A DNA stretch of 64,000 nt from Octopus vulgaris. Its lineage: Eukaryota. The DNA is taken from the NCBI GenBank assembly GCA_951406725.2, contig OX597842.1, forward strand, positions 16,616,001 through 16,680,000, written 5' to 3'. Shown in pieces: positions 21,896 to 50,371 of the stretch. Numbering within the stretch: the first letter of the stretch is position 1; each line of letters begins with the position of its first letter. A program made the translations under genes and the position numbers. Under the pieces are notes generated by a model. That model did not search any database and was not told the DNA's origin. It saw only the letters and a program-made list of their open reading frames with translations.

Positions 21896-22710
21896 ACAAA
21901 TAGAGAAACATAACATGACTCAAGTAGTGAGCTGATGTCATCCAGAATATCGGGGAGCATAGTTGGCATAAATGAAATAAGCTGTTCGTGATGGGATCAG
22001 AGTTTGTGGGGCCGGTATAATTCATAGCTTGTGGTGTGAAGCTGGTGTGAATAACAAGGAGCTGTTCATGATATGGCAAGTCAAGAGCTGATATAATCCA
22101 GAGTTTGCTGCACAATGTTGGTGATGAAACACAAAGACCTGTTCCGTGTTGAAAGAGAGATGTTGCTCTTCTGCCGTCTATCCACTGATTAAAACTTCCG
22201 CTTCACTTCATGGGCAGAGAACTGCTTTTGGTATTCATACGCACCCAGCCCTGATTGGCTGGAGAATGCCAGAGCACAACTGTGCTATGCCAGGACAAGT
22301 AAAATAGTTTTATGACTTGCTACAGATTAAAGGAACTTGTTATACAGAACAGGAATTACATTGACTTTTATAATATTTTATAATATTTTCTATGTACTGA
22401 AATTAATTGTAAAATGTCTCTGTTTTATTGACAGGAATGTATAGGAGATGACTTTTGATTCTAATTAAAATCGGATTACAAAGGAGTTTGCAACAGCCAC
22501 AGATATTAACAAAGACTGCAGTTTGATGGAAATGTAGCAGAGAAAAGATTGTGAATAAAATATATAAATATTTGAAAAAAAAAACATATATTGTGATAGA
22601 GAAGGAAAATTCGATAAACATTTATGTGAGAATATGGTTGAATAAAAACCACAGTGGATTGATTGACGTCGAAAAATATTGGGAAAATATAACACTGTGG
22701 TATTTATAAA

Positions 22711-24198
22711 ATGTCATTCTCTCAAAAAGTTGACCTTAATATTAAGAAACTTATTTGCAGAAATGATAGGCCATATCACTGTGATGTCTGTGGTAAATCA
22801 TTCACTCAAAACAGATCCTTGACCATTCACAAACGCATTCATATGGGAGAGAATCTGTATCACTGTGATATTTGTGGTCTTTCATTCTCTGAAGGAAATA
22901 GTTTGAGTCTACACAAACAAATTCATACAGAAGAGAAACCACGTCACTGTCGTATCTGTGGTAAATCATTCTCTCGAAATGATAACTTAACTGATCATTT
23001 GCGTATTCATACAGGAGAGAAACCTTATCACTGTGAGATCTGTGGTAAATCGGTCACTTCAAGTGGCGGCTTAACTAAACACATACGAACTCACACTGGT
23101 GAAAAGCCATACAGCTGTGGTATCTGTGGTAAATCATTATCTACAAGCAGCAACTTAAATACCCATGTACGTCTTCATACAGGAGAGAAGCCACACGGCT
23201 GTGATACCTGCGGTAAATCATTCTCTCAGGAATGTCATTTGACTATACATAAACGAATTCACACGGGAGATAGACCTTATCACTGTGATATCTGCGGTAA
23301 ATCATTCTCTCAGAAATGTTATTTGATTATACATAAACGTATTCACACGGGAGATAAACCTTATCACTGTGATATCTGTGGTAAATCGTTTTATGTAAAT
23401 TGCGCTTTAATCAAACACAAACAAATTCATACCGGAGAGAAGCCTTATTGTTGTGACATCTGTGGTAAATCATTCTCTCAGAAAAGTCATTTGATTGATC
23501 ACAAACACTTTCATACAGGAGAGAAGCCTTATCACTGTGATGTCTGCAGTAAATCATTTATTCGGAAAAGACAGTTGACTATACATAAACGTATTCACAC
23601 AGGAGAGAAGCCTTATCACTGTGATATCTGTGGTAAATCGTTTTCTGTAAATCACCATTTAATCAAACACAAACAAATTCACACAGGAGAGAAGCCTTAT
23701 TGTTGTGACATCTGTGGTAAATCATTCTCTCAGAAAAGTCATTTGATTGAACACAGACACATTCATACAGGAGAGAAGCCTTATCACTGTGATGTCTGCA
23801 GTAAATCATTTATTCGGAAAAAACAGTTGACTATACATAAACATATTCACACAGGAGATAAACCTTATCACTGTGATATCTGTGGTAAATCATTCTCTCA
23901 TCAATGTTCTTTGACTATACATAAACATATTCACACAGGAGAGAAGCCTTATCACTGTGATGTCTGTGGTAAATCATTCCGTCAGAACAATCCTTTGACT
24001 ATACATAAACGTATTCACACAGGAGAGAAGCCTTATCACTGTGATGTCTGTGGTAAATCATTCTGTCAGAAATATCCTTTGACTATACATAAACGTATTC
24101 ACACAGGAGAGAAGCCTTATCACTGTGATGTCTGCAGTAAATCATTTGCTCAGAAAAGACAGTTGACTACACATGTGTGTAGTCACACTAAAGAATAA
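22711..24198 (+). CDS. Tandem C2H2 zinc-finger protein, 17 fingers (ZNF copy 3)
   Basis: 495-aa ORF with the same N-terminus and HVCSHT[K/E]E end; has SEGNSL and SRNDNL fingers that copies 1 and 2 lack. Confidence 0.93.
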
Positions 24199-25214
24199 CT
24201 GTGCCAACATCAGAAGGCTTTTTGTAAAAACTATATTTTATATATTGTTGTATTTTGGAAGGGTCATTTTGCCAGTTTAGCCAATAAAAACACACGCACT
24301 ATATATTTGGTGTTAACCCTTTTGATACCAACCCGACCAAAACCACCTCTGGCTCTGTAGTATAAATGTCTTGTTTTCATAAGTTCTGAATTAAAATCTT
24401 CCACCAAACCTTAGTCACAATTTATGTTCCTAACACTAGCTTAATGATAATTAAGTTATTTTACTAAATTCTTTGTTATATTCAAAATTAATTCAAAGAA
24501 ACATGGAGCATCTCGACAGAAATATGGTAATGAAAAGGGTTAAAGACAGTCAGTCAAATGTGTCTCCAATTTGCACAAGATTTGGCTGCTATTTCTAACG
24601 AGTGAAACAAAATCTGAAAATTTAATCTTTTGATACCAACCCGACTGAAACCACCTCTGGCTCTGTAGTATAAATGTCTTGTTTTCATAAGTTTTGAATT
24701 AAAATCTTCCACCAAACCTTTGTCACAATTTATGTTCCTAACACTTGCTGAATGATAACTAAGTTATTTTATTAAATTCTTTGTTATATTTAACCCTTTT
24801 GATACAAACCTGGCTAAAACCACCTCTGGCTCTGTAGTACAAATGTCTTGTTTTCATAAGTTTTAAATTAAAATCTTCCACCAAACCTTAGTCACAATTT
24901 ATGTTCCTAACACTTGCTGAATGATAACTAAGTTATTTTACTAAATTCTTTGTTATATTTAAAATCAATTGAAAGAAACACAGAGCATCTCAACAGGAAT
25001 ATGGTAACAAAAGGGTTAATTTGCTTCAATTTGACCCGGTGTGGTAATGATTCTGCCAGCTCACCACATTTCTTACATGTATACCATTTTGCCTAAAAAA
25101 TGGATCTACAACTTCAATATCCTACATATCTCACATCTATTTTCTTTTCTCCACCTCACTCTCTATTTTGTATCCTATCTAAATTAACTATTATTTAACC
25201 ATCCTCTCACACCA

Positions 25215-25264: not shown

Positions 25265-26476
25265 CCTTCTATCAATAAATGTTCTAATATCTACACAGCC
25301 TTGGTTTTTTATCTCATTATGCAAAAAATTCTTATATAAATTAATTTGTTACTTAGCATTGGCGTAGGAGTGGCTGTGTGGTAAGTAGCTTGCTAACCAA
25401 CCACATGGTTCCGGGTTCAGTTCCACTGCGTGGCACCTTGGGCAAGTATCTTCTACTATAGCCTCGGGCCGACCAAAGCCTTGTGAGTGGATTTGGTAGA
25501 TGGAAACTGAAAGAAGCCCGTCATATATCTTAATCTTATTTCGGCCAGAGTTCTTTCGTCACACTCCTGTGACCGCATCAATGGTCCTTTGCTTTCTTCT
25601 TTCTTATTTGAAAATACAAAATGGCTGACCGTTAGTAAGGAGAGACACACAAACGACCAGACTTCATCATCATCATCATCGTTTAACGTCCGCTTTCCAT
25701 GCTAGCATGGGTTGGACGGTTCAACTGGGGTCTGGGAAGGCAGAAGGTTGCACCAGGCACAGTCTGGTCTGACAGTGTTTCTACGGCTGGATGCCCTTCC
25801 TAACGCCAACCACTCCGTGAGTGTAGTGGGTGCTTTTACGTGCCACCTGACACAAGTGCCAGGGGAGGCTGGCAAACGTCCACAATCGGATGGTGCTTTT
25901 TATGTACCACAGGCACGGAGGCCAGGCGAGGCTGGCAACGGCCCCAATCGGATGGTGCTTTTTGCACGTGCCACTGGCACAGAGGCCGTGCCCAGCTAAG
26001 GCTGGCAACGGCCACAATTGGATGGTGCTTTTTACATGCCACCAGCATGGAGGCCAGTCGGGGCGGCGCTGACAACGGCCACATTCGGATGGTTCTCTTA
26101 CATGCCCCAGAAATCTACATGTCTGTCTACGAGTGTTTGGGAATCAGCAATCGCATTCACAAGTGATGGTGTGAGTGATTCAGAAAACGATTATAATAAT
26201 AATATTTTTTATTCTAAATGATCTCGGCATTCCTTTTACTTTACATAATATATTCTTTACATTCTACTCTTTACTCTTTTACTCTTTTACTTGTTTCAGT
26301 CATTTGACTGCGGCCATGCTGGAGCACCGCCTTTAGTCGAGCAACTCGACCCCAGGACTTATTCTTTGTAAGCCTAGTGCTTATTCTATCGGTCTCTTTT
26401 GCCGAACCGCTAAGTGACGGGGACATAAACACACCAGCATCGGTTGTCATGCAATGCTAGGGGGACAAACACAAAC

Positions 26477-27078: not shown

Positions 27079-27937
27079 CCTCCTTCTTCCCTTCCTTCCT
27101 GAGTGTCCAATAATACTATATTTGTTCCACGTCCTCCCGTTGCTGTGTTTTCATGTTTGGATTATATATATATATATATATATATAGTGGAGGCGCAATG
27201 GCACAGTGGTTAGGGCAGCGGACTCGTGGTCGTAGGGTCGTGGTTTCGATTCCCAGACCGGGCGTTGTGAGTGTTTATTGAGCGGAAACACCTAAAACCT
27301 CCACGAGGCTCCGGCAGGGGATGGTGGTGATCCCTGCTGTACTCTTTCACCACAACTTTCTCTCACTCTTACTTCCTGTTTCTGTTGTACCTGTATTTCA
27401 AAGGGCCGGCCTTGTCACTCTCTGCGTCATGCTGAATATCCCCGAGAACTACGTTTAAGGGTACTACACGTGTCTGTGGAGTGCTCAGCCACTTACACGT
27501 TAATTTCACAAGCAGGCTGTTCCGTTGATTCGGATCAACCGGAACCCTCGTCGTCGTAACCGACGGAGCGCTTCCATATCATCATCATCATCATCGTTTA
27601 ACGTCCGTTTTCCGCGCTAGCACGGGTTGGACGGTTTGACCGGGGTCTGGGAAGCCAGAGGCCTCTCCAGGCTCCAGTCTGATCTTGCAGAGTTTCTACG
27701 GCTGGATGCCCTTCCTAACGCCAACCACTCCGCGAGTGGATTGGGTGCTTTTACGTGCCACCTGCACAGAGGCCGGGGGGGTCCGGCATTGGTCACGATC
27801 GGTTCGAGCTTTTCTAGAGCTGAGTTGGGGGGGGGTCTAGCTGAGAAAGGTTCCACCAGTGGAAAGAGAGGGAGAGATAGTGGGGGGTGCAGGTAATATA
27901 TATATATATATATGTATAGGAGCACTCCGTCGGTTAT

Positions 27938-28200
27938 AAATAATGTAATAATAATAATGAAATTATTGTATACAGTGCTCAGGTGCACCACAACTTGTCA
28001 GAAAGTATGTATAAAGAACATGCAGTAATGTACAAATGTCTGGAAAGTGAACAGTGTATGAGCCAGATACATGCTTGTGTGTGTATGGAGGGGAGAAAAT
28101 CAGGTGTAGTGTTGGCGAATCTCAGGAAGCATGGAAGGTTTGAAGGATGCAGTGCTCCGACAACTAACAACTGATGCCGGCAGTTTGTTCCATGCTTCAG
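27938..28200 (-). mobile_element. 3' end of a CR1/L2-type LINE: ORF2 C-terminus, 3' UTR and (ATT)n tail
   Basis: On -: AEAWNKLPASVVSCRSTASFKPSMLPEIRQHYT-stop, then unique UTR with a GTGCacctgaGCAC stem-loop and an ATTATTATT tail. Confidence 0.75.
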
Positions 28201-31200
28201 CGTGTGTATGGAGGGGAGAAAATCAGGTGTAGTGTTGGCGAATCTCAGGAAGTATGGAAGTTTTGAAGGATGCAGTGCTCCAACAACTAACAACTGATGC
28301 CGGCAGTTTGTTCCATGCTTCAGCGTGTGTATGGAGGGGAGAAAATCAGGTGTAGTGTTGGTGAATCTCAGGAAGCATGGAAGTTTTGAAGGATGCAGTG
28401 CTCCAACAACTAACAACTGATGCCGGCAGTTTGTTCCATGCTTCAGCGTGTGTATGGAGGGGAGAAAATCAGGTGTAGTGTTGGTGAATCTCAGGAAGTA
28501 TGGAAGTTTTGAAGGATGCAGTGCTCCAACAACTAACAACTGATGCCGGCAGTTTGTTCCATGCTTCAGCTTGTGTTTGGAGGGGAGAAAATCAGGTGTA
28601 GTGTTGGTGAATCTCAGGAAGTATGGAAGTTTTGAAGGATGCAGTGCTCCAACAACTAACAACTGATGCCGGCAGTTTGTTCCATGCTTCAGCTTGTGTA
28701 TGGAGGGGAGAAAATCAGGTGTAGTGTTGGCGAATCTCAGGAAGCATGGAAGTTTTGAAGGATGCAGTGCTCCAACAACTAACAACTAATGCCGGCAGTT
28801 TGTTCCATGCTTCAGCTTGTGTATGGAGGGAGAAAATCAGGTGTAGTGTTGGCGAATCTCAGGAAGCATGGAAGTTTTGAAGGATGCAGTGCTCCAACAA
28901 CTAACAACTGATGCCGGCAGCTTGTTCCATGCTTCAGCTTGTGTATGGAGGGGAGAAAATCAGGTGTAGTGTTGGCGAATCTCAGGAAGCATGGAAGTTT
29001 TGAAGGATGCAGTGCTCCAACAACTAACAACTGATGCCGGCAGTTTGTTCCATGCTTCAGCTTGTGTATGGAGGGGAGAAAATCAGGTGTAGTGTTGGCG
29101 AATCTCAGGAAGCATGGAAGTTTTGAAGGATGCAGTGCTCCGACAACTAACAACTGATGCCGGCAGTTTGTTCCATGCTTCAGCTTGTGTATGGAGGGGA
29201 GAAAATCAGGTGTAGTGTTGGCGAATCTCAGGAAGCATGGAAGTTTTGAAGGATGCAGTGCTCCGACAACTAACAACTGATGCCGGCAGTTTGTTCCATG
29301 CTTCAGCTTGTGTATGGAGGGAGAAAATCAGGTGTAGTGTTGGCGAATCTCAGGAAGCATGGAAGTTTTGAAGGATGCAGTGCTCCGACAACTAACAACT
29401 GATGCCGGCAGCTTGTTCCATGCTTCAGCTTGTGTATGGAGGGGAGAAAATCAGGTGTAGTGTTGGCGAATCTCAGGAAGCATGGAAGTTTTGAAGGATG
29501 CAGTGCTCCAACAACTAACAACTGATGCCGGCAGCTTGTTCCATGCTTCAGCTTGTGTATGGAGGGGAGAAAATCAGGTGTAGTGTTGGCGAATCTCAGG
29601 AAGCATGGAAGTTTTGAAGGATGCAGTGCTCCGACAACTAACAACTGATGCCGGCAGTTTGTTCCATGCTTTAGCTTGTGTATGGAGGGGAGAAAATCAG
29701 GTGTAGTGTTGGCGAATCTCAGGAAGTATGGAAGTTTTGAAGGATGCAGTGCTCCAACAACTAACAACTGATGCCGGCAGTTTGTTCCATGCTTCAGCTT
29801 GTGTATGGAGGGGAGAAAATCAGGTGTAGTGTTGGCGAATCTCAGGAAGCATGGAAGTTTTGAAGGATGCAGTGCTCCGACAACTAACAACTGATGCCGG
29901 CAGTTTGTTCCATGCTTCAGCTTGTGTATGGAGGGGAGAAAATCAGGTGTAGTGTTGGCGAATCTCAGGAAGCATGGAAGTTTTGAAGGATGCAGTGCTC
30001 CAACAACTAACAACTGATGCCGGCAGTTTGTTCCATGCTTCAATTTGTGTATGGAGGGGAGAAAATCAGGTGTAGTGTTGGCGAATCTCAGGAAGCATGG
30101 AAGTTTTGAAGGATGCAGTGCTCCAACAACTAACAACTGATGCCGGCAGTTTGTTCCATGCTTCAGCTTGTGTATGGAGGGGAGAAAATCAGGTGTAGTG
30201 TTGGCGAATCTCAGGAAGCATGGAAGTTTTGAAGGATGCAGTGCTCCAACAACTAACAACTGATGCCGGCAGTTGTTCCATGCTTCAGCTTGTGTATGGA
30301 GGGAGAAAATCAGGTGTAGTGTTGGCGAATCTCAGGAAGCATGGAAGTTTTGAAGGATGCAGTGCTCCAACAACTAACAACTGATGCCGGCAGTTTGTTC
30401 CATGCTTCAGCTTGTGTATGGAGGAGAAAATCAGGTGTAGTGTTGGCGAATCTCAGGAAGCATGGAAGTTTTGAAGGATGCAGTGCTCCAACAACTAACA
30501 ACTGATGCCGGCAGTTTGTTCCATGCTTCAGCTTGTGTATGGAGGGGAGAAAATCAGGTGTAGTGTTGGCGAATCTCAGGAAGCATGGAAGTTTTGAAGG
30601 ATGCAGTGCTCCAACAACTAACAACTGATGCCGGCAGTTTGTTCCATGCTTCAGCTTGTGTATGGAGGGGAGAAAATCAGGTGTAGTGTTGGCGAATCTC
30701 AGGAAGCATGGAAGTTTTGAAGGATGCAGTGCTCCAACAACTAACAACTGATGCCGGCAGCTTGTTCCATGCTTCAGCTTGTGTATGGAGGGGAGAAAAT
30801 CAGGTGTAGTGTTGGCGAATCTCAGGAAGCATGGAAGTTTTGAAGGATGCAGTGCTCCAACAACTAACAACTGATGCCGGCAGCTTGTTCCATGCTTCAG
30901 CTTGTGTATGGAGGGGAGAAAATCAGGTGTAGTGTTGGCGAATCTCAGGAAGCATGGAAGTTTTGAAGGATGCAGTGCTCCAACAACTAACAACTGATGC
31001 CGGCAGTTGTTCCATGCTTCAGCTTGTGTATGGAGGGGAGAAAATCAGGTGTAGTGTTGGCGAATCTCAGGAAGCATGGAAGTTTTGAAGGATGCAGTGC
31101 TCCAACAACTAACAACTGATGCCGGCAGTTTGTTCCATGCTTCAGCTTGTGTATGGAGGGGAGAAAATCAGGTGTAGTGTTGGCGAATCTCAGGAAGCAT

Positions 31201-34200
31201 GGAAGTTTTGAAGGATGCAGTGCTCCAACAACTAACAACTGATGCCGGCAGCTTGTTCCATGCTTCAGCTTGTGTATGGAGGAGAAAATCAGGTGTAGTG
31301 TTGGCGAATCTCAGGAAGCATGGAAGTTTTGAAGGATGCAGTGCTCCAACAACTAACAACTGATGCCGGCAGTTTGTTCCATGCTTCAGCTTGTGTATGG
31401 AGGGGAGAAAATCAGGTGTAGTGTTGGCGAATCTCAGGAAGCATGGAAGTTTTGAAGGATGCAGTGCTCCGACAACTAACAACTGATGCCGGCAGCTTGT
31501 TCCATGCTTCAGCTTGTGTATGGAGGGGAGAAAATCAGGTGTAGTGTTGGCGAATCTCAGGAAGTATGGAAGTTTTGAAGGATGCAGTGCTCCAACAACT
31601 AACAACTGATGCCGGCAGTTTGTTCCATGCTTCAGCTTGTGTATGGAGGGGAGAAAATCAGGTGTAGTGTTGGCGAATCTCAGGAAGCATGGAAGTTTTG
31701 AAGGATGCAGTGCTCCAACAACTAACAACTGATGCCGGCAGTTTGTTCCATGCTTCAGCTTGTGTATGGAGGGAGAAAATCAGGTGTAGTGTTGGCGAAT
31801 CTCAGGAAGCATGGAAGTTTTGAAGGATGCAGTGCTCCGACAACTAACAACTGATGCCGGCAGCTTGTTCCATGCTTCAGCTTGTGTATGGAGGGGAGAA
31901 AATCAGGTGTAGTGTTGGCGAATCTCAGGAAGCATGGAAGTTTTGAAGGATGCAGTGCTCCAACAACTAACAACTGATGCCGGCAGTTTGTTCCATGCTT
32001 CAGCTTGTGTATGGAGGGGAGAAAATCAGGTGTAGTGTTGGCGAATCTCAGGAAGCATGGAAGTTTTGAAGGATGCAGTGCTCCAACAACTAACAACTGA
32101 TGCCGGCAGCTTGTTCCATGCTTCAGCTTGTGTATGGAGGGGAGAAAATCAGGTGTAGTGTTGGCGAATCTCAGGAAGCATGGAAGTTTTGAAGGATGCA
32201 GTGCTCCAACAACTAACAACTGATGCCGGCAGCTTGTTCCATGCTTCAGCTTGTGTATGGAGGGGAGAAAATCAGGTGTAGTGTTGGCGAATCTCAGGAA
32301 GCATTGAAGTTTTGAAGGATGCAGTGCTCCAACAACTAACAACTGATGCCGGCAGTTTGTTCCATGCTTCAGCTTGTGTATGGAGGGGAGAAAATCAGGT
32401 GTAGTGTTGGCGAATCTCAGGAAGCATGGAAGTTTTGAAGGATGCAGTGCTCCAACAACTAACAACTGATGCCGGCAGCTTGTTCCATGCTTCAGCTTGT
32501 GTATGGAGGGGAGAAAATCAGGTGTAGTGTTGGCGAATCTCAGGAAGCATGGAAGTTTTGAAGGATGCAGTGCTCCAACAACTAACAACTGATGCCGGCA
32601 GCTTGTTCCATGCTTCAGCTTGTGTATGGAGGGGAGAAAATCAGGTGTAGTGTTGGCGAATCTCAGGAAGCATGGAAGTTTTGAAGGATGCAGTGCTCCG
32701 ACAACTAACAACTGATGCCGGCAGTTTGTTCCATGCTTCAGCTTGTGTATGGAGGGGAGAAAATCAGGTGTAGTGTTGGCGAATCTCAGGAAGCATGGAA
32801 GTTTTGAAGGATGCAGTGCTCCGACAACTAACAACTGATGCCGGCAGTTTGTTCCATGGTTCAGCTTGTGTATGGGGGGGAGAAAATCAGGTGTAGTGTT
32901 GGCGAATCTCAGGAAGCATGGAAGTTTTGAAGGATGCAGTGCTCCGACAACTAACAACTGATGCCGGCAGTTTGTTCCATGTTTCAGCTTGTGTATGGAG
33001 GGGAGAAAATCAGGTGTAGTGTTGGCGAATCTCAGGAAGCATGGAAGTTTTGAAGGATGCAGTGCTCCAACAACTAACAACTGATGCCGGCAGTTTGTTC
33101 CATGCTTCAGCTTGTGTATGGAGGGGAGAAAATCAGGTGTAGTGTTGGCGAATCTCAGGAAGCATGGAAGTTTTGAAGGATGCAGTGCTCCAACAACTAA
33201 CAACTGATGCCAGCAGCTTGTTCCATGCTTCAGCTTGTGTATGGAGGGGAGAAAATCAGGTGTAGTGTTGGCGAATCTCAGGAAGCATGGAAGTTTTGAA
33301 GGATGCAGTGCTCCAACAACTAACAACTGATGCCGGCAGTTTGTTCCATGCTTCAGCTTGTGTATGGAGGAGAGAAAATCAGGTGTAGTGTTAGCGAATC
33401 TCAGAAAGCATGGAAGTTTTGAAGGATGCAGTGCTCAGACAACTAACAACTGATGCCGGCAGTTTGTTCCATGCTTCAGCTTGTGTATGGAGGGAGAAAA
33501 TCAGGTGTAGTGTTGGCGAATCTCAGGAAGCATGGAAGTTTTGAAGGATGCAGTGCTCCAACAACTAACAACTGATGCCAGCAGCTTGTTCCATGCTTCA
33601 GCTTGTGTATGGAGGGGAGAAAATCAGGTGTTGTGTTGGCGAATCTCAGGAAGCATGGAAGTTTTGAAGGATGCAGTGCTCCAACAACTAACAACTGATG
33701 CCGGCAGTTTGTTCCATGCTTCAGCTTGTGTATGGAGGGGAGAAAATCAGGTGTAGTGTTGGCGAATCTCAGGAAGCATGGAAGTTTTGAAGGATGCAGT
33801 GCTCCAACAACTAACAACTGATGCCGGCAGTTTGTTCCATGCTTCAGCTTGTGTATGGAGGGGAGAAAATCAGGTGTAGTGTTGGCGAATCTCAGGAAGC
33901 ATGGAAGTTTTGAAGGATGCAGTGCTCCAACAACTAACAACTGATGCCGGCAGTTTGTTCCATGCTTCAGCTTGTGTATGGAGGGGGAGAAAATCAGGTG
34001 TAGTGTTGGCGAATCTCAGGAAGCATGGAAGTTTTGAAGGATGCAGTGCTCCAACAACTAACAACTGATGCCGGCAGTTTGTTCCATGCTTCAGCTTGTG
34101 TATGGAGGGGAGAAAATCAGGTGTAGTGTTGGCGAATCTCAGGAAGCATGGAAGTTTTGAAGGATGTAGTGCTCCGACAACTAACAACTGATGCCAGCAG

Positions 34201-37200
34201 CTTGTTCCATGCTTCAGCTTGTGTATGGAGGGGAGAAAATCAGGTGTAGTGTTGGCGAATCTCAGGAAGCATGGAAGTTTTGAAGGATGCAGTGCTCCAA
34301 CAACTAACAACTGATGCCGGCAGCTTGTTCCATGCTTCAGCTTGTGTATGGAGGGGAGAAAATCAGGTGTAGTGTTGGCGAATCTCAGGAAGCATGGAAG
34401 TTTTGAAGGATGCAGTGCTCCAACAACTAACAACTGATGCCGGCAGTTTGTTCCATGCTTCAGCTTGTGTATGGAGGGGAGGAAATCAGGTGTAGTGTTG
34501 GCGAATCTCAGGAAGCATGGAAGTTTTGAAGGATGCAGTGCTGCAACAACTAACAACTGATGCCGGCAGTTTGTTCCATGCTTGCTTGTGTATGGAGGGG
34601 AGGAAATCAGGTGTAGTGTTGGTGAATCTCAGGAAGCATGGAAGTTTTGAAGGATGCAGTGCTCCAACAACTAACAACTGATGCCGGCAGTTTGTTCCAT
34701 GCTTCAGCTTGTGTATGGAGGGGAGGAAATTAGGTGTAGTGTTGGCGAATCTCAGGAAGCATGGAAGTTTTGAAGGATGCAGTGCTCCAACAACTAACAA
34801 CTGATGCCGGCAGTTTGTTCCATGCTTCAGCTTGTGTATGGAGGGGAGAAAATTCAGGTGTAGTGTTGGCGAATCTCAGGAAGCATGGAAGTTTTGAAGG
34901 ATGCAGTGCTCCAACAACTAACAACTGATGCCGGCAGTTTGTTCCATGCTTCAGCTTGTGTATGGAGGGGAGAAAATCAGGTGTAGTGTTGGCGAATCTC
35001 AGGAAGCATGGAAGTTTTGAAGGATGCAGTGCTCCAACAACTAACAACTGATGCCGGCAGTTTGTTCCATGCTTCAGCTTGTGTATGGAGGGGAGAAAAT
35101 TAGGTGTAGTGTTGGCGAATCTCAGGAAGCATGGAAGTTTTGAAGGATGCAGTGCTCCAACAACTAACAACTGATGCCGGCAGTTTGTTCCATGCTTCAG
35201 CCTGTGTATGGAGGGGAGAAAATTAGGTGTAGTGTTGGCGAATCTCAGGAAGCATGGAAGTTTTGAAGGATGCAGTGCTCCAACAACTAACAACTGATGC
35301 CGGCAGCTTGTTCCATGCTTCAGCTTGTGTATGGAGGGAGAAAATCAGGTGTAGTGTTGGCGAATCTCAGGAAGCATGGAAGTTTTGAAGGATGCAGTGC
35401 TCCAACAACTAACAACTGATGCCGGCAGTTTGTTCCATGCTTCAGCTTGTGTATTGAGGGGAGAAAATCAGGTGTAGTGTTGGCGAATCTCAGGAAGCAT
35501 GGAAGTTTTGAAGGATGCAGTGCTCCAACAACTAACAACTGATGCCGGCAGCTTGTTCCATGCTTCAGCTTGTGTATGGAGGGGAGAAAATCAGGTGTAG
35601 TGTTGGCGAATCTCAGGAAGCATGGAAGTTTTGAAGGATGCAGTGCTCCAACAACTAACAACTGATGCCGGCAGCTTGTTCCATGCTTCAGCTTGTGTAT
35701 GGAGGGGAGAAAATCAGGTGTAGTGTTGGCGAATCTCAGGAAGCATGGAAGTTTTGAAGGATGCAGTGCTCCAACAACTAACAACTGATGCCGGCAGCTT
35801 GTTCCATGCTTCAGCTTGTGTATGGAGGGGAGAAAATCAGGTGTAGTGTTGGCGAATCTCAGGAAGCATGGAAGTTTTGAAGGATGCAGTGCTCCGACAA
35901 CTAACAACTGATGCCGGCAGTTTGTTCCATGCTTCAGCTTGTGTATGGAGAGGAGAAAATCAGGTGTAGTGTTGGCGAATCTCAGGAAGCATGGAAGTTT
36001 TGAAGGATGCAGTGCTCCAACAACTAACAACTGATGCCAGCAGCTTGTTCCATGCTTCAGCTTGTGTATGGAGGGGAGAAAATCAGGTGTAGTGTTGGCG
36101 AATCTCAGGAAGCATGGAAGTTTTGAAGGATGCAGTGCTCCGACACAACTAACAACTGATGCCGGCAGTTTGTTCCATGCTTCAGCTTGTGTATGGAGGG
36201 GAGAAAATCAGGTGTAGTGTTGGCGAATCTCAGGAAGCATGGAAGTTTTGAAGGATGCAGTGCTCCAACAACTAACAACTGATGCCGGCAGTTTGTTCCA
36301 TGCTTCAGCTTGTGTATGGAGGGAGAAAATCAGGTGTAGTGTTGGCGAATCTCAGGAAGTATGGAAGTTTTGAAGGATGCAGTGCTCCAACAACTAACAA
36401 CTGATGCCGGCAGTTTGTTCCATGCTTCAGCTTGTGTATGGAGGGGAGAAAATCAGGTGTAGTGTTGGCGAATCTCAGGAAGCATGGAAGTTTTGAAGGA
36501 TGCAGTGCTCCAACAACTAACAACTGATGCCGGCAGCTTGTGTATGGAGGGGAGAAAATCAGGTGTAGTGTTGGCGAATCTCAGGAAGTATGGAAGTTTT
36601 GAAGGATGCAGTGCTCCAACAACTAACAACTGATGCCGGCAGTTTGTTCCATGCTTCAGCTTGTGTATGGAGGGGAGAAAATCAGGTGTAGTGTTGGCGA
36701 ATCTCAGGAAGCATGGAAGTTTTGAAGGATGCAGTGCTCCAACAACTAACAACTGATGCCGGCAGTTTGTTCCATGCTTCAGCTTGTGTATGGAGGGGAG
36801 AAAATCAGGTGTAGTGTTGGCGAATCTCAGGAAGCATGGAAGTTTTGAAGGATGCAGTGCTCCAACAACTAACAACTGATGCCGGCAGTTTGTTCCATGC
36901 TTCAGCTTGTGTATGGAGGGGAGAAAATCAGGTGTAGTGTTGGCGAATCTCAGGAAGCATGGAAGTTTTGAAGGATGCAGTGCTCCAACAACTAACAACT
37001 GATGCCGGCAGTTTGTTCCATGCTTCAGCTTGTGTATTGAGGGGAGAAAATCAGGTGTAGTGTTGGCGAATCTCAGGAAGCATGGAAGTTTTGAAGGATG
37101 CAGTGCTCCAACAACTAACAACTGATGCCGGCAGTTTGTTCCATGCTTCAGCTTGTGTATGGAGGGGAGAAAATCAGGTGTAGTGTTGGCGAATCTCAGG

Positions 37201-40200
37201 AAGCATGGAAGTTTTGAAGGATGCAGTGCTCCAACAACTAACAACTGATGCCGGCAGTTTGTTCCATGCTTCAGCTTGTGTATGGAGGGAGAAAATCAGG
37301 TGTAGTGTTGGCGAATCTCAGGAAGCATGGAAGTTTTGAAGGATGCAGTGCTCCAACAACTAACAACTGATGCCGGCAGTTTGTTCCATGCTTCAGCTTG
37401 TGTATGGAGGGGAGAAAATCAGGTGTAGTGTTGGCGAATCTCAGGAAGCATGGAAGTTTTGAAGGATGCAGTGCTCCAACAACTAACAACTGATGCCGGC
37501 AGTTTGTTCCATGCTTCAGCTTGTGTATGGAGGGGAGAAAATCAGGTGTAGTGTTGGCGGTGTAATCTCAGGAAGCATGGAAGTTTTGAAGGATGCAGTG
37601 CTCCAACAACTAACAACTGATGCCGGCAGTTTGTTCCATGCTTCAGCTTGTGTATGGAGGGGAGAAAATCAGGTGTAGTGTTGGCGAATCTCAGGAAGCA
37701 TGGAAGTTTTGAAGGATGCAGTGCTCCAACAACTAACAACTGATGCCGGCAGCTTGTTCCATGCTTCAGCTTGTGTATGGAGGGAGAGAAAATCAGGTGT
37801 AGTGTTGGCGAATCTCAGGAAGCATGGAAGTTTTGAAGGATGCAGTGCTCCAACAACTAACAACTGATGCCGGCAGTTTGTTCCATGCTTCAACCTTGTG
37901 TATGGAGGGGAGAAAATCAGGTGTAGTGTTGGCGAATCTCAGGAAGCATGGAAGTTTTGAAGGATGCAGTGCTCCAACAACTAACAACTGATGCCGGCAG
38001 TTTGTTCCATGCTTCAGCTTGTGTATGGAGGGAGAAAATCAGGTGTAGTGTTGGCGAATCTCAGGAAGCATGGAAGTTTTGAAGGATGCAGTGCTCCAAC
38101 AACTAACAACTGATGCCGGCAGTTTGTTCCATGCTTCAGCTTGTGTATGGAGGGAGAAAATCAGGTGTAGTGTTGGCGAATCTCAGGAAGCATGGAAGTT
38201 TTGAAGGATGCAGTGCTCCAACAACTAACAACTGATGCCGGCAGCTTGTTCCATGCTTCAGCTTGTGTATGGAGGGGAGAAAATCAGGTGTAGTGTTGGC
38301 GAATCTCAGGAAGCATGGAAGTTTTGAAGGATGCAGTGCTCCAACAACTAACAACTGATGCCGGCAGTTTGTTCCATGCTTCAGCTTGTGTATGGAGGGG
38401 AGAAAATCAGGTGTAGTGTTGGCGAATCTCAGGAAGCATGGAAGTTTTGAAGGATGCAGTGCTCCAACAACTAACAACTGATGCCGGCAGTTTGTTCCAT
38501 GCTTCAGCTTGTGTATGGAGGGGAGAAAATCAGGTGTAGTGTTGGCGAATCTCAGGAAGCATGGAAGTTTTGAAGGATGCAGTGCTCCAACAACTAACAA
38601 CTGATGCCGGCAGTTTGTTCCATGCTTCAGCTTGTGTATGGAGGGGAGAAAATCAGGTGTAGTGTTGGCGAATCTCAGGAAGCATGGAAGTTTTGAAGGA
38701 TGCAGTGCTCCAACAACTAACAACTGATGCCGGCAGTTTGTTCCATGCTTCAGCTTGTGTATGGAGGGGAGAAAATCAGGTGTAGTGTTGGCGAATCTCA
38801 GGAAGCATGGAAGTTTTGAAGGATGCAGTGCTCCAACAACTAACAACTGATGCCGGCAGCTTGTTCCATGCTTCAGCTTGTGTATGGAGGAGAAAATCAG
38901 GTGTAGTGTTGGCGAATCTCAGGAAGCATGGAAGTTTTGAAGGATGCAGTGCTCCAACAACTAACAACTGATGCCAGCAGTTTGTTCCATGCTTCAGCTT
39001 GTGTATGGAGGGAGAAAATCAGGTGTAGTGTTGGCGAATCTCAGGAAGCATGGAAGTTTTGAAGGATGCAGTGCTCCAACAACTAACAACTGATGCCGGC
39101 AGTTTGTTCCATGCTTCAGCTTGTGTATGGAGGGGAGAAAATCAGGTGTAGTGTTGGCGAATCTCAGGAAGCATGGAAGTTTTGAAGGATGCAGTGCTCC
39201 AACAACTAACAACTGATGCCGGCAGTTTGTTCCATGCTTCAGCTTGTGTATGGAGGGGAGAAAATCAGGTGTAGTGTTGGCGAATCTCAGGAAGCATGGA
39301 AGTTTTGAAGGATGCAGTGCTCCAACAACTAACAACTGATGCCGGCAGTTGTTCCATGCTTCAGCGTGTGTATGGAGGGGAGAAAATCAGGTGTAGTGTT
39401 GGCGAATCTCAGGAAGCATGGAAGTTTTGAAGGATGCAGTGCTCCAACAACTAACAACTGATGCCGGCAGTTTGTTCCATGCTTCAGCTTGTGTATGGAG
39501 GGAGAAAATCAGGTGTAGTGTTGGCGAATCTCAGGAAGCATGGAAGTTTTGAAGGATGCAGTGCTCCAACAACTAACAACTGATGCCGGCAGCTTGTTCC
39601 ATGCTTCAGCTTGTGTATGGAGGGAGAAAATCAGGTGTAGTGTTGGCGAATCTCAGGAAGCATGGAAGTTTTGAAGGATGCAGTGCTCCAACAACTAACA
39701 ACTGATGCCGGCAGCTTGTTCCATGCTTCAGCTTGTGTATGGATGGGAGAAAATTAGGTGTAGTGTTGGCGAATCTCAGGAAGCATGGAAGTTTTGAAGG
39801 ATGCAGTGCTCCAACAACTAACAACTGATGCCGGCAGCTTGTTCCATGCTTCAGCTTGTGTATGGAGGGGAGAAAATCAGGTGTAGTGTTGGCGAATCTC
39901 AGGAAGCATGGAAGTTTTGAAGGATGCAGTGCTCCAACAACTAACAACTGATGCCGGCAGCTTGTTCCATGCTTCAGCTTGTGTATGGAGGGGAGAAAAT
40001 CAGGTGTAGTGTTGGCGAATCTCAGGAAGCATGGAAGTTTTGAAGGATGCAGTGCTCCAACAACTAACAACTGATGCCGGCAGCTTGTTCCATGCTTCAG
40101 CTTGTGTATGGAGGGGAGAAAATCAGGTGTAGTGTTGGCGAATCTCAGGAAGCATGGAAGTTTTGAAGGATGCAGTGCTCCAACAACTAACAACTGATGC

Positions 40201-43200
40201 CGGCAGTTTGTTCCATGCTTCAGCTTGTGTATGGAGGGGAGAAAATCAGGTGTAGTGTTGGCGAATCTCAGGAAGCATGGAAGTTTTGAAGGATGCAGTG
40301 CTCCAACAACTAACAACTGATGCCGGCAGTTTGTTCCATGCTTCAGCTTGTGTATGGAGGGGAGAAAATCAGGTGTAGTGTTGGCGAATCTCAGGAAGCA
40401 TGGAAGTTTTGAAGGATGCAGTGCTCCAACAACTAACAACTGATGCCGGCAGTTTGTTCCATGCTTCAGCTTGTGTATGGAGGGGAGAAAATCAGGTGTA
40501 GTGTTGGCGAATCTCAGGAAGCATGGAAGTTTTGAAGGATGCAGTGCTCCAACAACTAACAACTGATGCCGGCAGTTTGTTCCATGCTTCAGCTTGTGTA
40601 TGGAGGGGAGAAAATCAGGTGTAGTGTTGGCGAATCTCAGGAAGCATGGAAGTTTTGAAGGATGCAGTGCTCCAACAACTAACAACTGATGCCGGCAGTT
40701 TGTTCCATGCTTCAGCTTGTGTATGGAGGGGAGAAAATCAGGTGTAGTGTTGGCGAATCTCAGGAAGCATGGAAGTTTTGAAGGATGCAGTGCTCCAACA
40801 ACTAACAACTGATGCCGGCAGTTTGTTCCATGCTTCAGCTTGTGTATGGAGGGGAGAAAATCAGGTGTAGTGTTGGCGAATCTCAGGAAGCATGGAAGTT
40901 TTGAAGGATGCAGTGCTCCAACAACTAACAACTGATGCCGGCAGCTTGTTCCATGCTTCAGCTTGTGTATGGAGGGAGAAAATCAGGTGTAGTGTTGGCG
41001 AATCTCAGGAAGCATGGAAGTTTTGAAGGATGCAGTGCTCCAACAACTAACAACTGATGCTGGCAGTTTGTTCCATGCTTCAGCTTGTGTATGGAGGGGA
41101 GAAAATCAGGTGTAGTGTTGGCGAATCTCAGGAAGCATGGAAGTTTTGAAGGATGCAGTGCTCCAACAACTAACAACTGATGCCGGCAGTTTGTTCCATG
41201 CTTCAGCTTGTGTATGGAGGGAGAAAATCAGGTGTAGTGTTGGCGAATCTCAGGAAGCATGGAAGTTTTGAAGGATGCAGTGCTCCAACAACTAACAACT
41301 GATGCCGGCAGTTTGTTCCATGCTTCAGCTTGTGTATGGAGGGGAGAAAATCAGGTGTAGTGTTGGCGAATCTCAGGAAGCATGGAAGTTTTGAAGGATG
41401 CAGTGCTCCAACAACTAACAACTGATGCCGGCAGCTTGTTCCATGCTTCAGCTTGTGTATGGAGGGGAGAAAATCAGGTGTAGTGTTGGCGAATCTCAGG
41501 AAGCATGGAAGTTTTGAAGGATGCAGTGCTCCAACAACTAACAACTGATGCCGGCAGTTTGTTCCATGCTTCAGCCTGTGTATGGAGGGGAGAAAATTAG
41601 GTGTAGTGTTGGCGAATCTCAGGAAGCATGGAAGTTTTGAAGGATGCAGTGCTCCAACAACTAACAACTGATGCCGGCAGTTTGTTCCATGCTTCAGCTT
41701 GTGTATGGAGGGGAGAAAATCAGGTGTAGTGTTGGCGAATCTCAGGAAGCATGGAAGTTTTGAAGGATGCAGTGCTCCAACAACTAACAACTGATGCCGG
41801 CAGCTTGTTCCATGCTTCAGCTTGTGTATGGAGGGGAGAAAATCAGGTGTAGTGTTGGCGAATCTCAGGAAGCATGGAAGTTTTGAAGGATGCAGTGCTC
41901 CAACAACTAACAACTGATGCCGGCAGCTTGTTCCATGCTTCAGCTTGTGTATGGAGGGGAGAAAATCAGGTGTAGTGTTGGCGAATCTCAGGAAGCATGG
42001 AAGTTTTGAAGGATGCAGTGCTCCAACAACTAACAACTGATGCCGGCAGCTTGTTCCATGCTTCAGCTTGTGTATGGAGGGGAGAAAATCAGGTGTAGTG
42101 TTGGCGAATCTCAGGAAGCATGGAAGTTTTGAAGGATGCAGTGCTCCAACAACTAACAACTGATGCCGGCAGTTTGTTCCATGCTTCAGCTTGTGTATGG
42201 AGGGAGAAAATCAGGTGTAGTGTTGGCGAATCTCAGGAAGCATGGAAGTTTTGAAGGATGCAGTGCTCCAACAACTAACAACTGATGCCGGCAGCTTGTT
42301 CCATGCTTCAGCTTGTGTATGGAGGGAGAAAATCAGGTGTAGTGTTGGCGAATCTCAGGAAGCATGGAAGTTTTGAAGGATGCAGTGCTCCAACAACTAA
42401 CAACTGATGCCGGCAGTTTGTTCCATGCTTCAGCTTGTGTATTGGAGGGGAGAAAATCAGGTGTAGTGTTGGCGAATCTCAGGAAGCATGGAAGTTTTGA
42501 AGGATGCAGTGCTCCAACAACTAACAACTGATGCCGGCAGTTTGTTCCATGCTTCAGCTTGTGTATGGAGGGAGAAAATCAGGTGTAGTGTTGGCGAATC
42601 TCAGGAAGCATGGAAGTTTTGAAGGATGCAGTGCTCCAACAACTAACAACTGATGCCGGCAGTTTGTTCCATGCTTCAGCTTGTGTATGGAGGGGAGAAA
42701 ATCAGGTGTAGTGTTGGCGAATCTCAGGAAGCATGGAAGTTTTGAAGGATGCAGTGCTCCAACAACTAACAACTGATGCCGGCAGTTTGTTCCATGCTTC
42801 AGCTTGTGTATGGAGGGGAGAAAATCAGGTGTAGTGTTGGCGAATCTCAGGAAGCATGGAAGTTTTGAAGGATGCAGTGCTCCAACAACTAACAACTGAT
42901 GCCGGCAGCTTGTTCCATGCTTCAGCTTGTGTATGGAGGGGAGAAAATCAGGTGTAGTGTTGGCGAATCTCAGGAAGCATGGAAGTTTTGAAGGATGCAG
43001 TGCTCCAACAACTAACAACTGATGCCGGCAGTTTGTTCCATGCTTCAGCTTGTGTATGGAGGGGAGAAAATCAGGTGTAGTGTTGGCGAATCTCAGGAAG
43101 CATGGAAGTTTTGAAGGATGCAGTGCTCCAACAACTAACAACTGATGCCGGCAGTTTGTTCCATGCTTCAGCTTGTGTATGGAGGGGAGAAAATCAGGTG

Positions 43201-43543
43201 TAGTGTTGGCGAATCTCAGGAAGCATGGAAGTTTTGAAGGATGCAGTGCTCCAACAACTAACAACTGATGCCGGCAGCTTGTTCCATGCTTCAGCTTGTG
43301 TATGGAGGGGAGAAAATCAGGTGTAGTGTTGGCGAATCTCAGGAAGCATGGAAGTTTTGAAGGATGCAGTGCTCCAACAACTAACAACTGATGCCGGCAG
43401 TTTGTTCCATGCTTCAGCTTGTGTATGGAGGGGAGAAAATCAGGTGTAGTGTTGGCGAATCTCAGGAAGCATGGAAGTTTTGAAGGATGCAGTGCTCCAA
43501 CAACTAACAACTGATGCCGGCAGTTTGTTCCATGCTTCAGCTT
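28078..43543. repeat. 123-bp satellite array, ~126 near-identical units
   Basis: Unit GTGTATGGAGGGGAGAAAATCAGGTGTAGTGTTGGCG...TTCCATGCTTCAGCTT; copy number estimated as length/123. Confidence 0.98.
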
Positions 43544-43576
43544 TGTAAACATGTCCATGGGTGTTAGATGGGTGGA

Positions 43577-43840
43577 GTTATGACGATGAGGGTTCCAGAT
43601 TATCTGATCAACAGAACAGCTTGCTCGTGAAATTAACATGCAAGTGGCTGAGCATTCCACAGACACGCGTACCCTTAACGTAGTTCTCGGGGGGAGATAG
43701 AGTGAGAGAAAGCTGTGGTGAAAGAGTACGGCAGGGTTCACCTTGCTCAAGAACACAACACGGAGCCCGGTCCGGGATTCGAGCTCACAACCTCACGATC
43801 GTAAGCTCGACGCTCTAACCACTGAGCCACGCGCCTTCAC
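43577..43840 (-). mobile_element. 5' part of a tRNA-derived SINE (family B-related) interrupted by the LINE/satellite
   Basis: Head GGCGCGTGGCTCAGTGGTTAGAGCG...GCTCGAATCCC; its last ~19 nt lie at 27919-27937. Confidence 0.75.
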
Positions 43841-44070
43841 CACTAAAATGATGCTTGTCAGAAGTTATAAACAACTCATAAATAAGAGCAAAAGAAATTG
43901 GACCAATTCGGTGATGACGGAATTTTTAGAAATTTGTCAGCTTGCTTTGAGACACAAACTTTTAGTAATTAATTATATGTGGTTATTGACAATTTGAAGT
44001 CTATTTCTCGGCTTATTTGGCATAGGAATTTTTTTCTTTTCCCCTTATTTATAAGTTGTATATATATATA

Positions 44071-46371: not shown

Positions 46372-46975
46372 TCTCTTTTACTCGTTTCAGTCATTTGACT
46401 GTGGCCATGCTGGAGCACCACCTTTTAATCGAGCAAATCGACCCCGGGACTTATTCTTTGTAAGCCCAGTACTTATTCTATCGGTCTCTTTTCTCTTTTA
46501 CTTGTTTCAGTCATTTGACTGCGGGCCATGCTGGAGCACCGCCTTTTAATCAAGCAAATCGACCCCGGGACTTATTCTTTGTAAGCCCAGTTCTTATTCT
46601 ATCGGTCTCTTTTCTCTTTTACTTGTTTCAGTCATTTGACTGCGGCCATGCTGGAGCACCGCCTTTTAGTCAAGCAAATCGACCCCGGGACTTATTCTTT
46701 GTAAGCCCAGTACTTATTCTATCGGTCTCTTTTCTCTTTTACTTGTTTCAGTCATTTGACTGCGGCCATGCTGAGCACCGCCTTTTAGTCAAGCAAATCG
46801 ACCCCGGGACTTATTCTTTGTAAGCCCAGTACTTATTCTATCGGTCTCTTTTCTCTTTTACTTGTTTCAGTCATTTGACTGCGGCCATGCTGGACCGCCT
46901 TTTAGTCAAGCAAATCGACTCCCGGGACTTAGTCTTTGTAAGCCCAGTACTTATTCTATCGGTCTCTTTTGCCGA
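46372..46975 (-). repeat. Tandem ~119-bp repeats of the SINE-A tail (5 units)
   Basis: Directly visible and continuous with a complete SINE-A to ~47236; seen again at 49757-50070. Confidence 0.9.
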
Positions 46976-47235
46976 ACCGCTACGGGGACGTAAACACACC
47001 AGCATCGGTTGTCAAGCAATGCTAGGGGGACAAACACAGACACACAAACATATACACATACATATATATATACGACAGGCTTCTTTCAGTTTCCGTCTAC
47101 CAAATCCACTCACAAGGCATTGGTCGGCCCAAAGCTATAGCAGAAGGCACTTACCCAAGATGCCAAGCAGTGGGACTGAACCCGGAACCATGTGGTTAGT
47201 TAGCAAGCTACTTACCACACAGCCACTCCTGCACC

Positions 47236-47269
<34 letters not shown>

Positions 47270-48399
47270 CATATATATATATATGTATATATATATATAA
47301 AATGAATTAGAGATAAAACCACTATTATGCAACTCAAACAGTGATAGACATAAACCAATACATAAATAACAAATAATATAAATATAATTAATCATCATCA
47401 TCGTCTAACGTCCGTTCTCCATGCTAGCATGGGTTGGACGCTAATATTATTATTATATATATATATATTCTCCCTAATATTATTATCATTATATATATAT
47501 AATGGCCGTTTGCCAGCCTCATCTGGCATCTGTGCCGGTGGCATGTAAAAAGCACCCACTACACTCACGGAGTGGTTGGCGTTAGGAAGGGCATCCAGCC
47601 ATAGAAACACTGCCAGATCAGACTGGGCCTGGTGCAGCCTTCGGGCTTCCCAGACCCCAGTTGAACCGTCCAACCCATGCTAGCATGGATAGCGGACGCT
47701 AAACGAAGATGATGATGATGATATATATATATATAATTATTATTTGAGGGAATAAAATCCTAAACTTACAAGGAAAAAAATTTCAATTTAGAAATACTAA
47801 ATCAAATTTCACACAAAATAATATATATATATATATACTCTCTCTCTTTTACTTGTTTCAGTCATTTGACTGCGGCCATGCTGGAGCACCACCTTTAATC
47901 GAGCAACTCGACCCCGGAACTTATTCTTTTGTAAGCCCAGTACTTATTCTATTGGTCTCTTTTGCCGAACCGCTAAGTGACGGGGACGTAAACACACCAG
48001 CATCGGTTGTTAAGCAATGCTGGGGGACAAACACAGACACACACATATATATATATATATACGACAAGCTTCTTTCAGTTTCCATCTACCAAATCCACTC
48101 ACAAGGCATTGGTTGGCCCGGGGCTATAGCAGAAGACACTTGCCCAAGATGCCACACAGTGGGACTGAACCCGGAACCATGTGGTTGGTAAGCAAGCTAC
48201 TTACCACACAGCCACTCCTGAAATTTGAATTGATAAAAGGTGTTCTTTTTTCTAATTTTATATATATATTATTTAGTAAGAAAATGGAAAGATTTAACGG
48301 ATATAAATTAATTTAGGTTCTTATAAACTCTACATTTGGAATGAGCCATTTTAAATTCTGTCGCATTTTACTCATAAGGTCTTGGAATCTTACATATAT

Positions 48400-49310: not shown

Positions 49311-49656
49311 CATTTACATGTATACCATTTTGCCTAAAAAATGGATCTACAACTTCAATATCCCTACATAATTTCACATCTATTTTCTTTTCTCGAAAGG
49401 ATGAAAGGCAAAGTCGACCTCAGCTTTGAACTCAGAATGTAGCGGCAGACGAAATTGTATCCTATCTAAATTAACTATTATTTAACCATCCTCTCACACC
49501 ATCTCCGATGAAGGGATATAATTACAAATATCCTAGAAACAGCTGTAAGACCTTCTATCAATAAATGTTCTAATATCTACACAGCCTTGGTTTTTTACTC
49601 ATTATGCAAAAAATTCTTATATAAATTAATTTGTTACTTAGCATTGGCGTAGGAGT

Positions 49657-49756
49657 NNNNNNNNNNNNNNNNNNNNNNNNNNNNNNNNNNNNNNNNNNNN
49701 NNNNNNNNNNNNNNNNNNNNNNNNNNNNNNNNNNNNNNNNNNNNNNNNNNNNNNNN
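49657..49756. other. Assembly gap (100 N)
   Basis: Run of exactly 100 N. Confidence 0.99.

Positions 49757-50337: not shown

Positions 50338-50371
<34 letters not shown>

What the first reader, a model, noticed from the sequence alone, without database searches (positions are those of the whole stretch)
27919..43840. A 15.5-kb satellite born from the end of a LINE that landed inside one SINE
Seen: one minus-strand frame of the 123-bp unit reads AEAWNKLPASVVSCWSTASFKTSMLPEIRQHYT-stop. This aligns by eye with the CR1/L2 ORF2 C-terminus elsewhere in the window (ADPWNKLQDEMVKMPTTARFKLSLDYKWPELFT-stop, 16720-16822). The leftmost unit runs into a unique 3' UTR with a stem-loop and (ATT)n tail (27938-28077). 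The flanks GGAGCACTCCGTCGGTTAT (27919-27937) and GTTATGACGATGAGGGTTCC (43577+) are contiguous in intact SINE-B copies (e.g. 5505-5537), with GTTAT on both sides. Inference: a ~260-300-bp 5'-truncated LINE inserted into a SINE and its 5'-most 123 bp was amplified ~126-fold, possibly seeded by AAGC(ATG) microhomology between ORF end and UTR. This would be a complete birth record of a young satellite inside a ZNF cluster.
Basis: partly seen in the sequence, partly recalled or inferred. Interest (0 to 1): 0.8.

Follow-up and report, generated by a model that had tools for sequence, protein, structure and literature searches.

The report
Tandem array grown from LINE end
The tail end of a jumping gene landed in another small repeat of an octopus-type genome and a 123-base piece of it was then copied 126 times in a row, which is a known way for satellite DNA to arise, here with an unusually clear record of the first steps.

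Summary
An array of 126 units of 123 bp (28080-43542) encodes the last 33 residues of a LINE ORF2. An Octopus vulgaris protein matches the end unit at 32 of 33 residues. Public runs and a read-through protein show monomer and 3' UTR contiguous in the dispersed family. The LINE piece sits about 19 bp from the 3' end of a tRNA-headed SINE, in the same orientation.

Corrections: the monomer is not the 5'-most part. A 35-bp ORF2 stub precedes it, with 57 bp missing exactly at the monomer start. Three of the five 'duplicated' bases are LINE-target microhomology. The stem-loop is unsupported.

The oldest junctions lie in an imperfect repeat (9 of 11 bases). Shared variants show that growth came after insertion, by exchange between units. 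Duplication and deletion leave from one breakpoint, so one stalled strand, probably the cDNA, may have slipped back and then skipped forward (about 0.5; separate later events about 0.35).

Array length, other loci and the empty site were not testable. Transposon-derived arrays are a known class, and the window holds many smaller ones.

The parts
27896..27918 (-). (TA)n tail after the SINE 3' end
   Evidence: sequence; assignment to the SINE is inferred
27919..27937 (-). 3'-terminal 19 bp of the split SINE, with GTTAT at 27933-27937
   Evidence: 16 of 16 match to 17614-17629; reads of run X21 continue from 43578 into this motif (loose ends)
27938..28079 (-). single-copy LINE 3' UTR with ATT-rich tail
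   Evidence: unique in the window; loose ends before 43420 in X1 (56 contigs) and X2 (101) spell its start; read-through protein P0065 aligns over 28201-27959, E 1.8e-24
28070..28079 (+). UTR copy of the imperfect direct repeat (CATGCTT, then GC in the family, GT here); the partner copy is at the end of every unit, e.g. 28191-28201
28080..43542 (-). 126 tandem units of 123 bp: last 33 ORF2 codons, stop codon, 20 bp of UTR and one junction base
   Evidence: end unit matches P0002 at 32 of 33 residues
28080..28450 (-). UTR-side edge: units 1-3 keep the ancestral junction base, unit 1 also the ancestral Arg codon
   Evidence: ancestral states
43542..43579 (-). single-copy ORF2 stub (LHPSNTHGHVYK), joined to the first monomer across a 57-bp in-frame gap; 43577-43579 are shared by LINE and SINE
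   Evidence: loose ends at 43541 (both sides) and 43579
43577..43762 (-). body of the split SINE (short subfamily)
   Evidence: high depth in X1 and X2
43763..43840 (-). tRNA-like SINE head; A-box-like at 43819-43829, B-box-like at 43776-43784 with one mismatch
   Evidence: sequence, box consensus recalled; family alignment ends at 43840; ARAGORN finds no tRNA; Rfam gives only a sub-threshold match, E 0.13

Best explanation
A 5'-truncated copy of an abundant octopus LINE (endonuclease plus reverse transcriptase type, CR1-like) inserted by target-primed reverse transcription into the 3' tail of an older SINE copy, in the same orientation, with 3 bp of 5' microhomology and a target duplication of at most 5 bp (structure shown; reaction inferred). 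During or soon after this, one growing + strand stalled at the monomer boundary. That strand has the polarity of the first-strand cDNA. It slipped back 123 bp onto an imperfect repeat in the UTR (9 of 11 bases paired), recopied the ORF end, stalled at the same point and skipped 57 bases forward before joining the target (inferred). The seed of two or more units then grew to 126 and was homogenised by unequal exchange and gene conversion, with ancestral alleles surviving at the UTR edge (spread shown by variants; process inferred). The array is most likely neutral DNA between two zinc-finger genes.
For: Parent family: P0002 (Octopus vulgaris) E 3e-15. All 6 long relatives scanned (of 23 over 700 aa among the 150 listed) carry RVT_1 plus an endonuclease domain, and the match lies at their C-terminus. 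Monomer-UTR contiguity. Deletion: 19-residue gap; 133 of 134 proteins with both flanking motifs keep a 26-30 spacing, the exception being the stub itself; loose ends on both sides of 43541 spell the missing residues. Duplication and deletion share this breakpoint. The family UTR has GC where units 1-3 join. Only 135 of 19,900 random junction pairs (0.7%, criterion set after the fact) lie as close to a repeat of 7 bp or more. Spread after founding: a CpG-decay allele that is the minority in the family (about 20% of depth in X1 and X2) occupies 111 of 125 rows, while the other two CpGs changed in at most 5 rows each. The 14 ancestral rows all lie in the first 64 (P 3.9e-5). Ten variant pairs show all four allele combinations. 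ZfL2-1 gives 5-bp duplications and annealing-type 5' joins (PMC4245944, passages).
Against: The shared breakpoint has a later-event reading: the majority junction base gives a 3-bp exact match (7 of 8 with a bulge) to the stub, which a deletion could have used after the array existed. The native deletion has only 1 bp of microhomology. Strand polarity is weak evidence, since symmetric end-joining gives the same product. In LAVA elements new insertions showed no repeat change and remodelling was at DNA level (PMC4432496, passages). The commonest variant (36 of 125) shows no neighbour clustering (p 0.26), and 32 of 125 units carry an indel, 20 of them a lost G in one homopolymer, so part of the variation may be long-read error or mis-polishing. 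No read or contig listed spans the array or shows its junctions.
Confidence: 0.5

Rival explanations
1. Same insertion, but ordinary and complete (about 360 bp). The first duplication arose later at DNA level, by slippage or end-joining between the short flanking repeats (the Haber and Louis route). The 57-bp loss was a separate deletion, either before it or afterwards from the stub into an internal junction.
For: All 14 other arrays tested in the window are made of repeated sequence, so tandem duplication is common here. Flanking repeats of about 7 bp are the usual signature (PMC3389668 and PMC6947457, passages). The majority junction matches the stub at 3 bp exactly.
Against: It needs a coincidence: the deletion ends exactly at the unit start, or a junction transversion happens to equal the stub base. 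The ancestral junction keeps a CpG that the terminal UTR has since lost, which points to an early duplication.
Confidence: 0.35
2. The whole array was made in one step by rolling-circle reverse transcription of a 123-nt circle, or by insertion of an amplified circle.
For: Low divergence, 0.66% from consensus, and no higher-order period over lags 1-30.
Against: One template predicts mostly single-unit variants, but 82 of 102 substitutions are shared among units, with a positional gradient. The 57-base gap has no GT-AG ends that fit the junction, so a spliced or back-spliced origin is not supported (read).
Confidence: 0.05
3. The array is short in the animal and was inflated in assembly.
For: Homopolymer indels suggest noisy long reads. 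A 3-kb tandem duplicate sits across the window's N gap. No run confirmed the junction.
Against: Both ends join single-copy sequence in the right order. There are 30 distinct substitutions with edge-restricted ancestral alleles, which copying a few units would not give.
Confidence: 0.07
4. The stub-monomer-UTR form with an internal repeat is itself a mobile non-autonomous family, and this is one expanded copy.
For: table 5c lists back-joints from 43537 to 43420 in X1 and X2 that would be tandem junctions in the 121-bp register if both sides are long.
Against: Those joints carry the letters of the native UTR and may be short contigs placed on the 7-bp repeat; side lengths were not given. No protein relative has the deletion. 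In X21 only 2 of 91,617 reads ran over either end of the stretch.
Confidence: 0.03

Closest known systems
SINE-derived satellites (sSat) of squamates (PMC10702118; first fifth of the text and passages seen)
   Same: Arrays of 70-290 bp pieces of a retroposon, from a few to hundreds of units, with leading and trailing parent sequence; longer arrays are more homogeneous
   Different: Here the parent is a LINE ORF2 end and the SINE is only the landing site; one locus, between zinc-finger genes
Chicken HinfI (SCR1) repeat and CR1-C-derived centromeric repeats (named in reviews PMC9659126 and PMC6947457, passages; originals not read)
   Same: Tandem repeat holding the ORF2 end and 3' UTR of a CR1 element
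   Different: No evidence here of spread or centromeric role; the whole 123-bp unit is LINE, and both parent ends and the target are still attached
TE-derived minisatellites flanked by short direct repeats (Haber and Louis model, as described in PMC3389668 and PMC6947457, passages)
   Same: Unit bounded by a repeat of about 7 bp inside a transposon, later expanded
   Different: The junction lies 2 bp off the exact repeat's register, coincides with a 57-bp deletion, and the array is far longer than the Alu-derived ones (mean about 2.3-2.4 units in PMC3389668)
Maize CRM1TR and CRM4TR (PMC3648361, passages)
   Same: Array entirely from one retrotransposon, with traceable junction and conversion
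   Different: LTR element, much longer monomer (about 1370 nt for CRM4TR), no short repeat at the junction
Cetacean common satellite from the L1 3' end (as cited in PMC9659126)
   Same: Satellite from the 3' part of a LINE
   Different: A major heterochromatic family of another clade; origin locus not described in the passage seen

Membership tests
Non-LTR retrotransposon (LINE) 3' end | Sequence is the C-terminus of an endonuclease plus reverse transcriptase ORF2 | tested here: met
   6 of 6 long relatives scanned have both domains, match C-terminal; they are about 40% identical to P0002, and no full-length copy of this very family was found
Non-LTR retrotransposon (LINE) 3' end | ORF end followed by 3' UTR and simple-repeat tail in dispersed copies | tested here: met
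Non-LTR retrotransposon (LINE) 3' end | 5' truncation with microhomology or short target duplication | tested here: met
   family sequence continues beyond 43579; 3 bp shared with the target; duplication of 0-5 bp cannot be fixed
CR1 clade | Reverse transcriptase tree places the family in CR1 rather than L2 or other clades | not tested
   no named references or full-length parent; the label rests on a recalled C-terminal motif; none of the 20 relatives looked up carried a clade name
CR1/L2-type 3' end | Conserved stem-loop before the tail | tested here: inconclusive
   only a weak hairpin, no better than shuffles; no alignment of copies for covariation
TE-derived tandem repeat | Unit wholly from a transposon, head-to-tail, in register with parent sequence on both sides | tested here: met
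Satellite DNA family | Long array of homogenised units | tested here: met
   15.5 kb, 1.15% mean pairwise difference, shared variants; length rests on the assembly
Satellite DNA family | Several loci or heterochromatic, centromeric or subtelomeric position | not testable with these tools
   no genome held
tRNA-derived SINE (host) | tRNA-like head with A and B boxes, high copy number, simple-repeat tail | tested here: inconclusive
   boxes seen by eye against a recalled consensus; high depth in three runs; ARAGORN and Rfam gave no formal hit

The most novel reading that the evidence does not exclude
The LINE's own reverse transcriptase made the satellite seed in the act of insertion, by two template switches from one stall site on its RNA. 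This site may be a recurrent slip point that seeds tandem units in other copies of the family. Retrotransposition would then be a direct source of satellite seeds, with this locus as a complete record.
Probability: 0.3. Interest if true: 0.62.

Novelty: new member of a known kind. Interest (0 to 1): 0.38.

Why it matters
How the first duplication of a satellite arises is still open: one survey could explain only 6% of TE-derived human tandem repeats by the known models (PMC3389668, passages). This locus keeps the target, both ends of the parent, the seeding repeat, the ancestral junction and the direction of allele spread. Orthologous flank is present in two other sequenced organisms, so the order of events can be tested directly. 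It does not suggest a new function or a new class of element.

Tried and rejected
No whole genome was held, so other arrays and family copy number could not be counted.

A 29-base monomer pattern found 0 matches in metagenome contigs. P0002 found no confirmed relatives in metagenome or viral contigs. Pfam gave nothing for the three short C-terminal pieces or for P0003.

Of 24 runs listed, the best held 0.53 of the words, and I laid 4. X24 gave 3 reads and is uninformative. X21 lacks the unique flank, so it says nothing about the orthologous site. The small word shares were not used as evidence.

Rejected ideas: a UTR that is an old duplicate of the monomer (local score reached by 20% of 500 shuffles); the 57 bases as a spliced intron (ends do not fit); a SINE-LINE chimera made by one template switch (SINE sequence lies on both sides); a higher-order repeat; a paralogous empty site in the window (flanks 27814-27895 and most of 43850-44030 have no copy).

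Three look-ups of earlier findings gave one unrelated note. Eight paper searches listed no description of this repeat or of LINE-derived arrays in octopus. The O. vulgaris repeat library of PMC13282606 (supplement and Zenodo deposit) was not seen and may already hold the family.

Full report
Observation. The array is real in the assembled sequence: 28080-43547, 98% matches, 126 units, of which 93 of 125 split pieces are exactly 123 bp. No part of the monomer, UTR or stub recurs elsewhere in the window. The array lies between two convergent C2H2 zinc-finger frames (22693-24195 +, 17 fingers; 53549-55723 -, 25 fingers), two of four such frames in the window.

What the monomer is. Translating the right end gave a 43-residue peptide. 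Its only hit among longer proteins was an Octopus vulgaris protein, P0002. The UTR-side unit matches it at 32 of 33 residues. P0002 has 7,037 relatives at E up to 0.001. I scanned 6 of the 23 listed relatives over 700 aa, and all 6 have reverse transcriptase and endonuclease domains with the match at the C-terminus. So the monomer is the end of a LINE ORF2. The CR1 label is recalled from the motif and was not tested by a tree. The LINE end at 16.7 kb is a different family, 34% identical. The host is inferred to be an octopus from these names only.

Monomer and UTR belong together. Laying public data on 43400-44060, contigs of the dispersed family leave the monomer at 43420 and continue with the window's UTR (56 contigs in X1, 101 in X2). 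Independently, protein P0065 reads through the stop and aligns along the UTR almost to the tail. The UTR folds no better than shuffles.

A 35-bp single-copy stub encoding LHPSNTHGHVYK lies 5' of the array and is joined directly to the first monomer, while the parent has 19 more residues there. Of 162 proteins held, 134 had both flanking motifs and 133 keep the long spacing; the exception is the stub. Loose ends on both sides of 43541 spell the missing residues, with 1 bp shared at the join. The gap ends exactly where each unit begins. Whether other genomic copies share this deletion could not be seen in the listed output.

The target. The SINE is on the minus strand, with a tRNA-like head ending near 43840. 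The LINE therefore sits about 19 bp from its 3' end in the same orientation. The right part belongs to a shorter subfamily than the three intact copies, two of which lie in one segmental duplicate. The family LINE sequence matches the window up to 43579 (43 contigs), so GTT of the right-hand GTTAT is shared by LINE and target, and the AT on the left could come from the tail. A duplication of up to 5 bp with 5' microhomology fits what is reported for ZfL2-1 (PMC4245944, passages), but a blunt insertion is not excluded. Single-copy contigs in X1 (180 bp, 4 mismatches, 2 gaps) and X2 (245 bp, 5 mismatches, 2 gaps) join the SINE head to the same unique flank, so the SINE is shared. They do not reach the LINE junction.

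The seed. On the + strand the family UTR reads CATGCTT-GC and the unit end reads CATGCTT-CA-GC, 9 of 11 bases alike. The exact 7-mer has period 121, and the units join at the GC with period 123. Six exact patterns classed 119 of the 125 internal junctions: 4 are the pure UTR-plus-monomer join (units 1, 2, 3 and 92), 112 carry T at the next base, 2 carry C, and 1 has lost the two bulged bases. The pure join keeps a CpG that the terminal UTR has lost, so it is ancestral and early. The T equals the first stub base. A growing + strand would have the 7-mer behind its 3' end, as priming needs, and the + strand is the polarity of first-strand cDNA. Symmetric end-joining would give the same product, so this is weak support.

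Growth. Units differ from consensus by 0.66%, pairwise by 1.15%; 82 of 102 substitutions are shared. At unit position 80 the family majority is G (about 80% of depth in X1 and X2; 169 of 214 reads in X21), but 111 of 125 rows have the CpG-decay A. The 14 G rows are all in the first 64 (P 3.9e-5). One mutation thus spread through the array after it was founded, which excludes a one-step origin of the present sequence. Against over-reading: the commonest variant is not clustered (p 0.26) and homopolymer indels are frequent, so some variation may be technical. Homogenisation means unit divergence is only a lower bound on age. At 0.0036 per site per million years (quoted in PMC13282606, main text read) it would be about 2 million years, while stub and UTR differ from the family majority at roughly 4 of 65 comparable bases, too few to date.

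Distribution. In run X21 the LINE family is present but only 2 of 91,617 laid reads run over either end of the stretch, so that organism shows no such array; it also lacks the unique flank. For X1 and X2 the listing neither shows nor excludes the array. Back-joints in the 121-bp register appear there (table 5c) but may be native UTR contigs placed on the 7-mer.

Context and verdict. All 14 other arrays I tested, with units of 42-280 bp and 2-10 copies, match sequence repeated elsewhere in the window, several as paralogues. Transposon-derived arrays, including CR1 and L1 3' ends, are well documented (PMC9659126, PMC6947457, PMC3389668, PMC3648361, PMC4432496 passages; PMC10702118 first fifth and passages; PMC7004042 abstract). 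Eight searches listed no account of this repeat; supplements were not read. The architecture (LINE end in a SINE tail, expanded after insertion) I hold at about 0.9. The single stalled-strand seed I hold at about 0.5 and separate later events at about 0.35. It is a new, unusually legible member of a known kind.

Noticed in passing
window 46664-49656 and 49757-52727: A 3-kb segment is repeated at 96.7% directly across the 100-N gap (49657-49756); it may be two haplotypes assembled in tandem.
   Followed up: no
window 772-1938, 12709-13791, 22693-24195 (+), 53549-55723 (-): Four single-frame C2H2 zinc-finger arrays of 13, 12, 17 and 25 fingers inside direct and inverted segmental duplicates at 83-96% identity.
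   Followed up: partly
window 9315-11012, 14959-15483, 19902-20454, 21316-21770, 24620-24962, 25829-26064, 46372-46970, 48432-49266, 57425-58430, 61969-62834: Many small arrays (62-280 bp units, 2-10 copies) built from pieces of repeats that also occur elsewhere in the window; tandem duplication of repeat pieces looks common in this genome.
   Followed up: partly
window 4280-4777 and 16400-16912: 3' ends of a second LINE family with (TAAC)n tails, paralogous within the 3279-6233 / 15393-18342 duplicate; the 4.5-kb copy has a frameshift.
   Followed up: partly
window 34577-34590: One junction has lost exactly the two bulged bases and so sits in the 121-bp register of the exact 7-bp repeat.
   Followed up: partly
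window 36446-36551: One 106-bp unit, a 17-bp deletion between two CAGCTTG-like motifs; the commonest variant (position 105 T to C) creates such a motif.
   Followed up: no
table 5c, window 43537 to 43420: More than 100 variants of a back-joint in runs X1 and X2; either native UTR contigs or real tandem junctions at other loci.
   Followed up: partly
protein P0065, residues 5-37: Its N-terminus matches the opposite strand of the monomer, so that relative carries an inverted duplicate of the same ORF end.
   Followed up: no
window 43429-43447 (first monomer after the SINE head): A run of four T on the minus strand just after the stop codon could end a Pol III transcript from the SINE head inside the first monomer, before the LINE tail (terminator rule recalled).
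   Followed up: no
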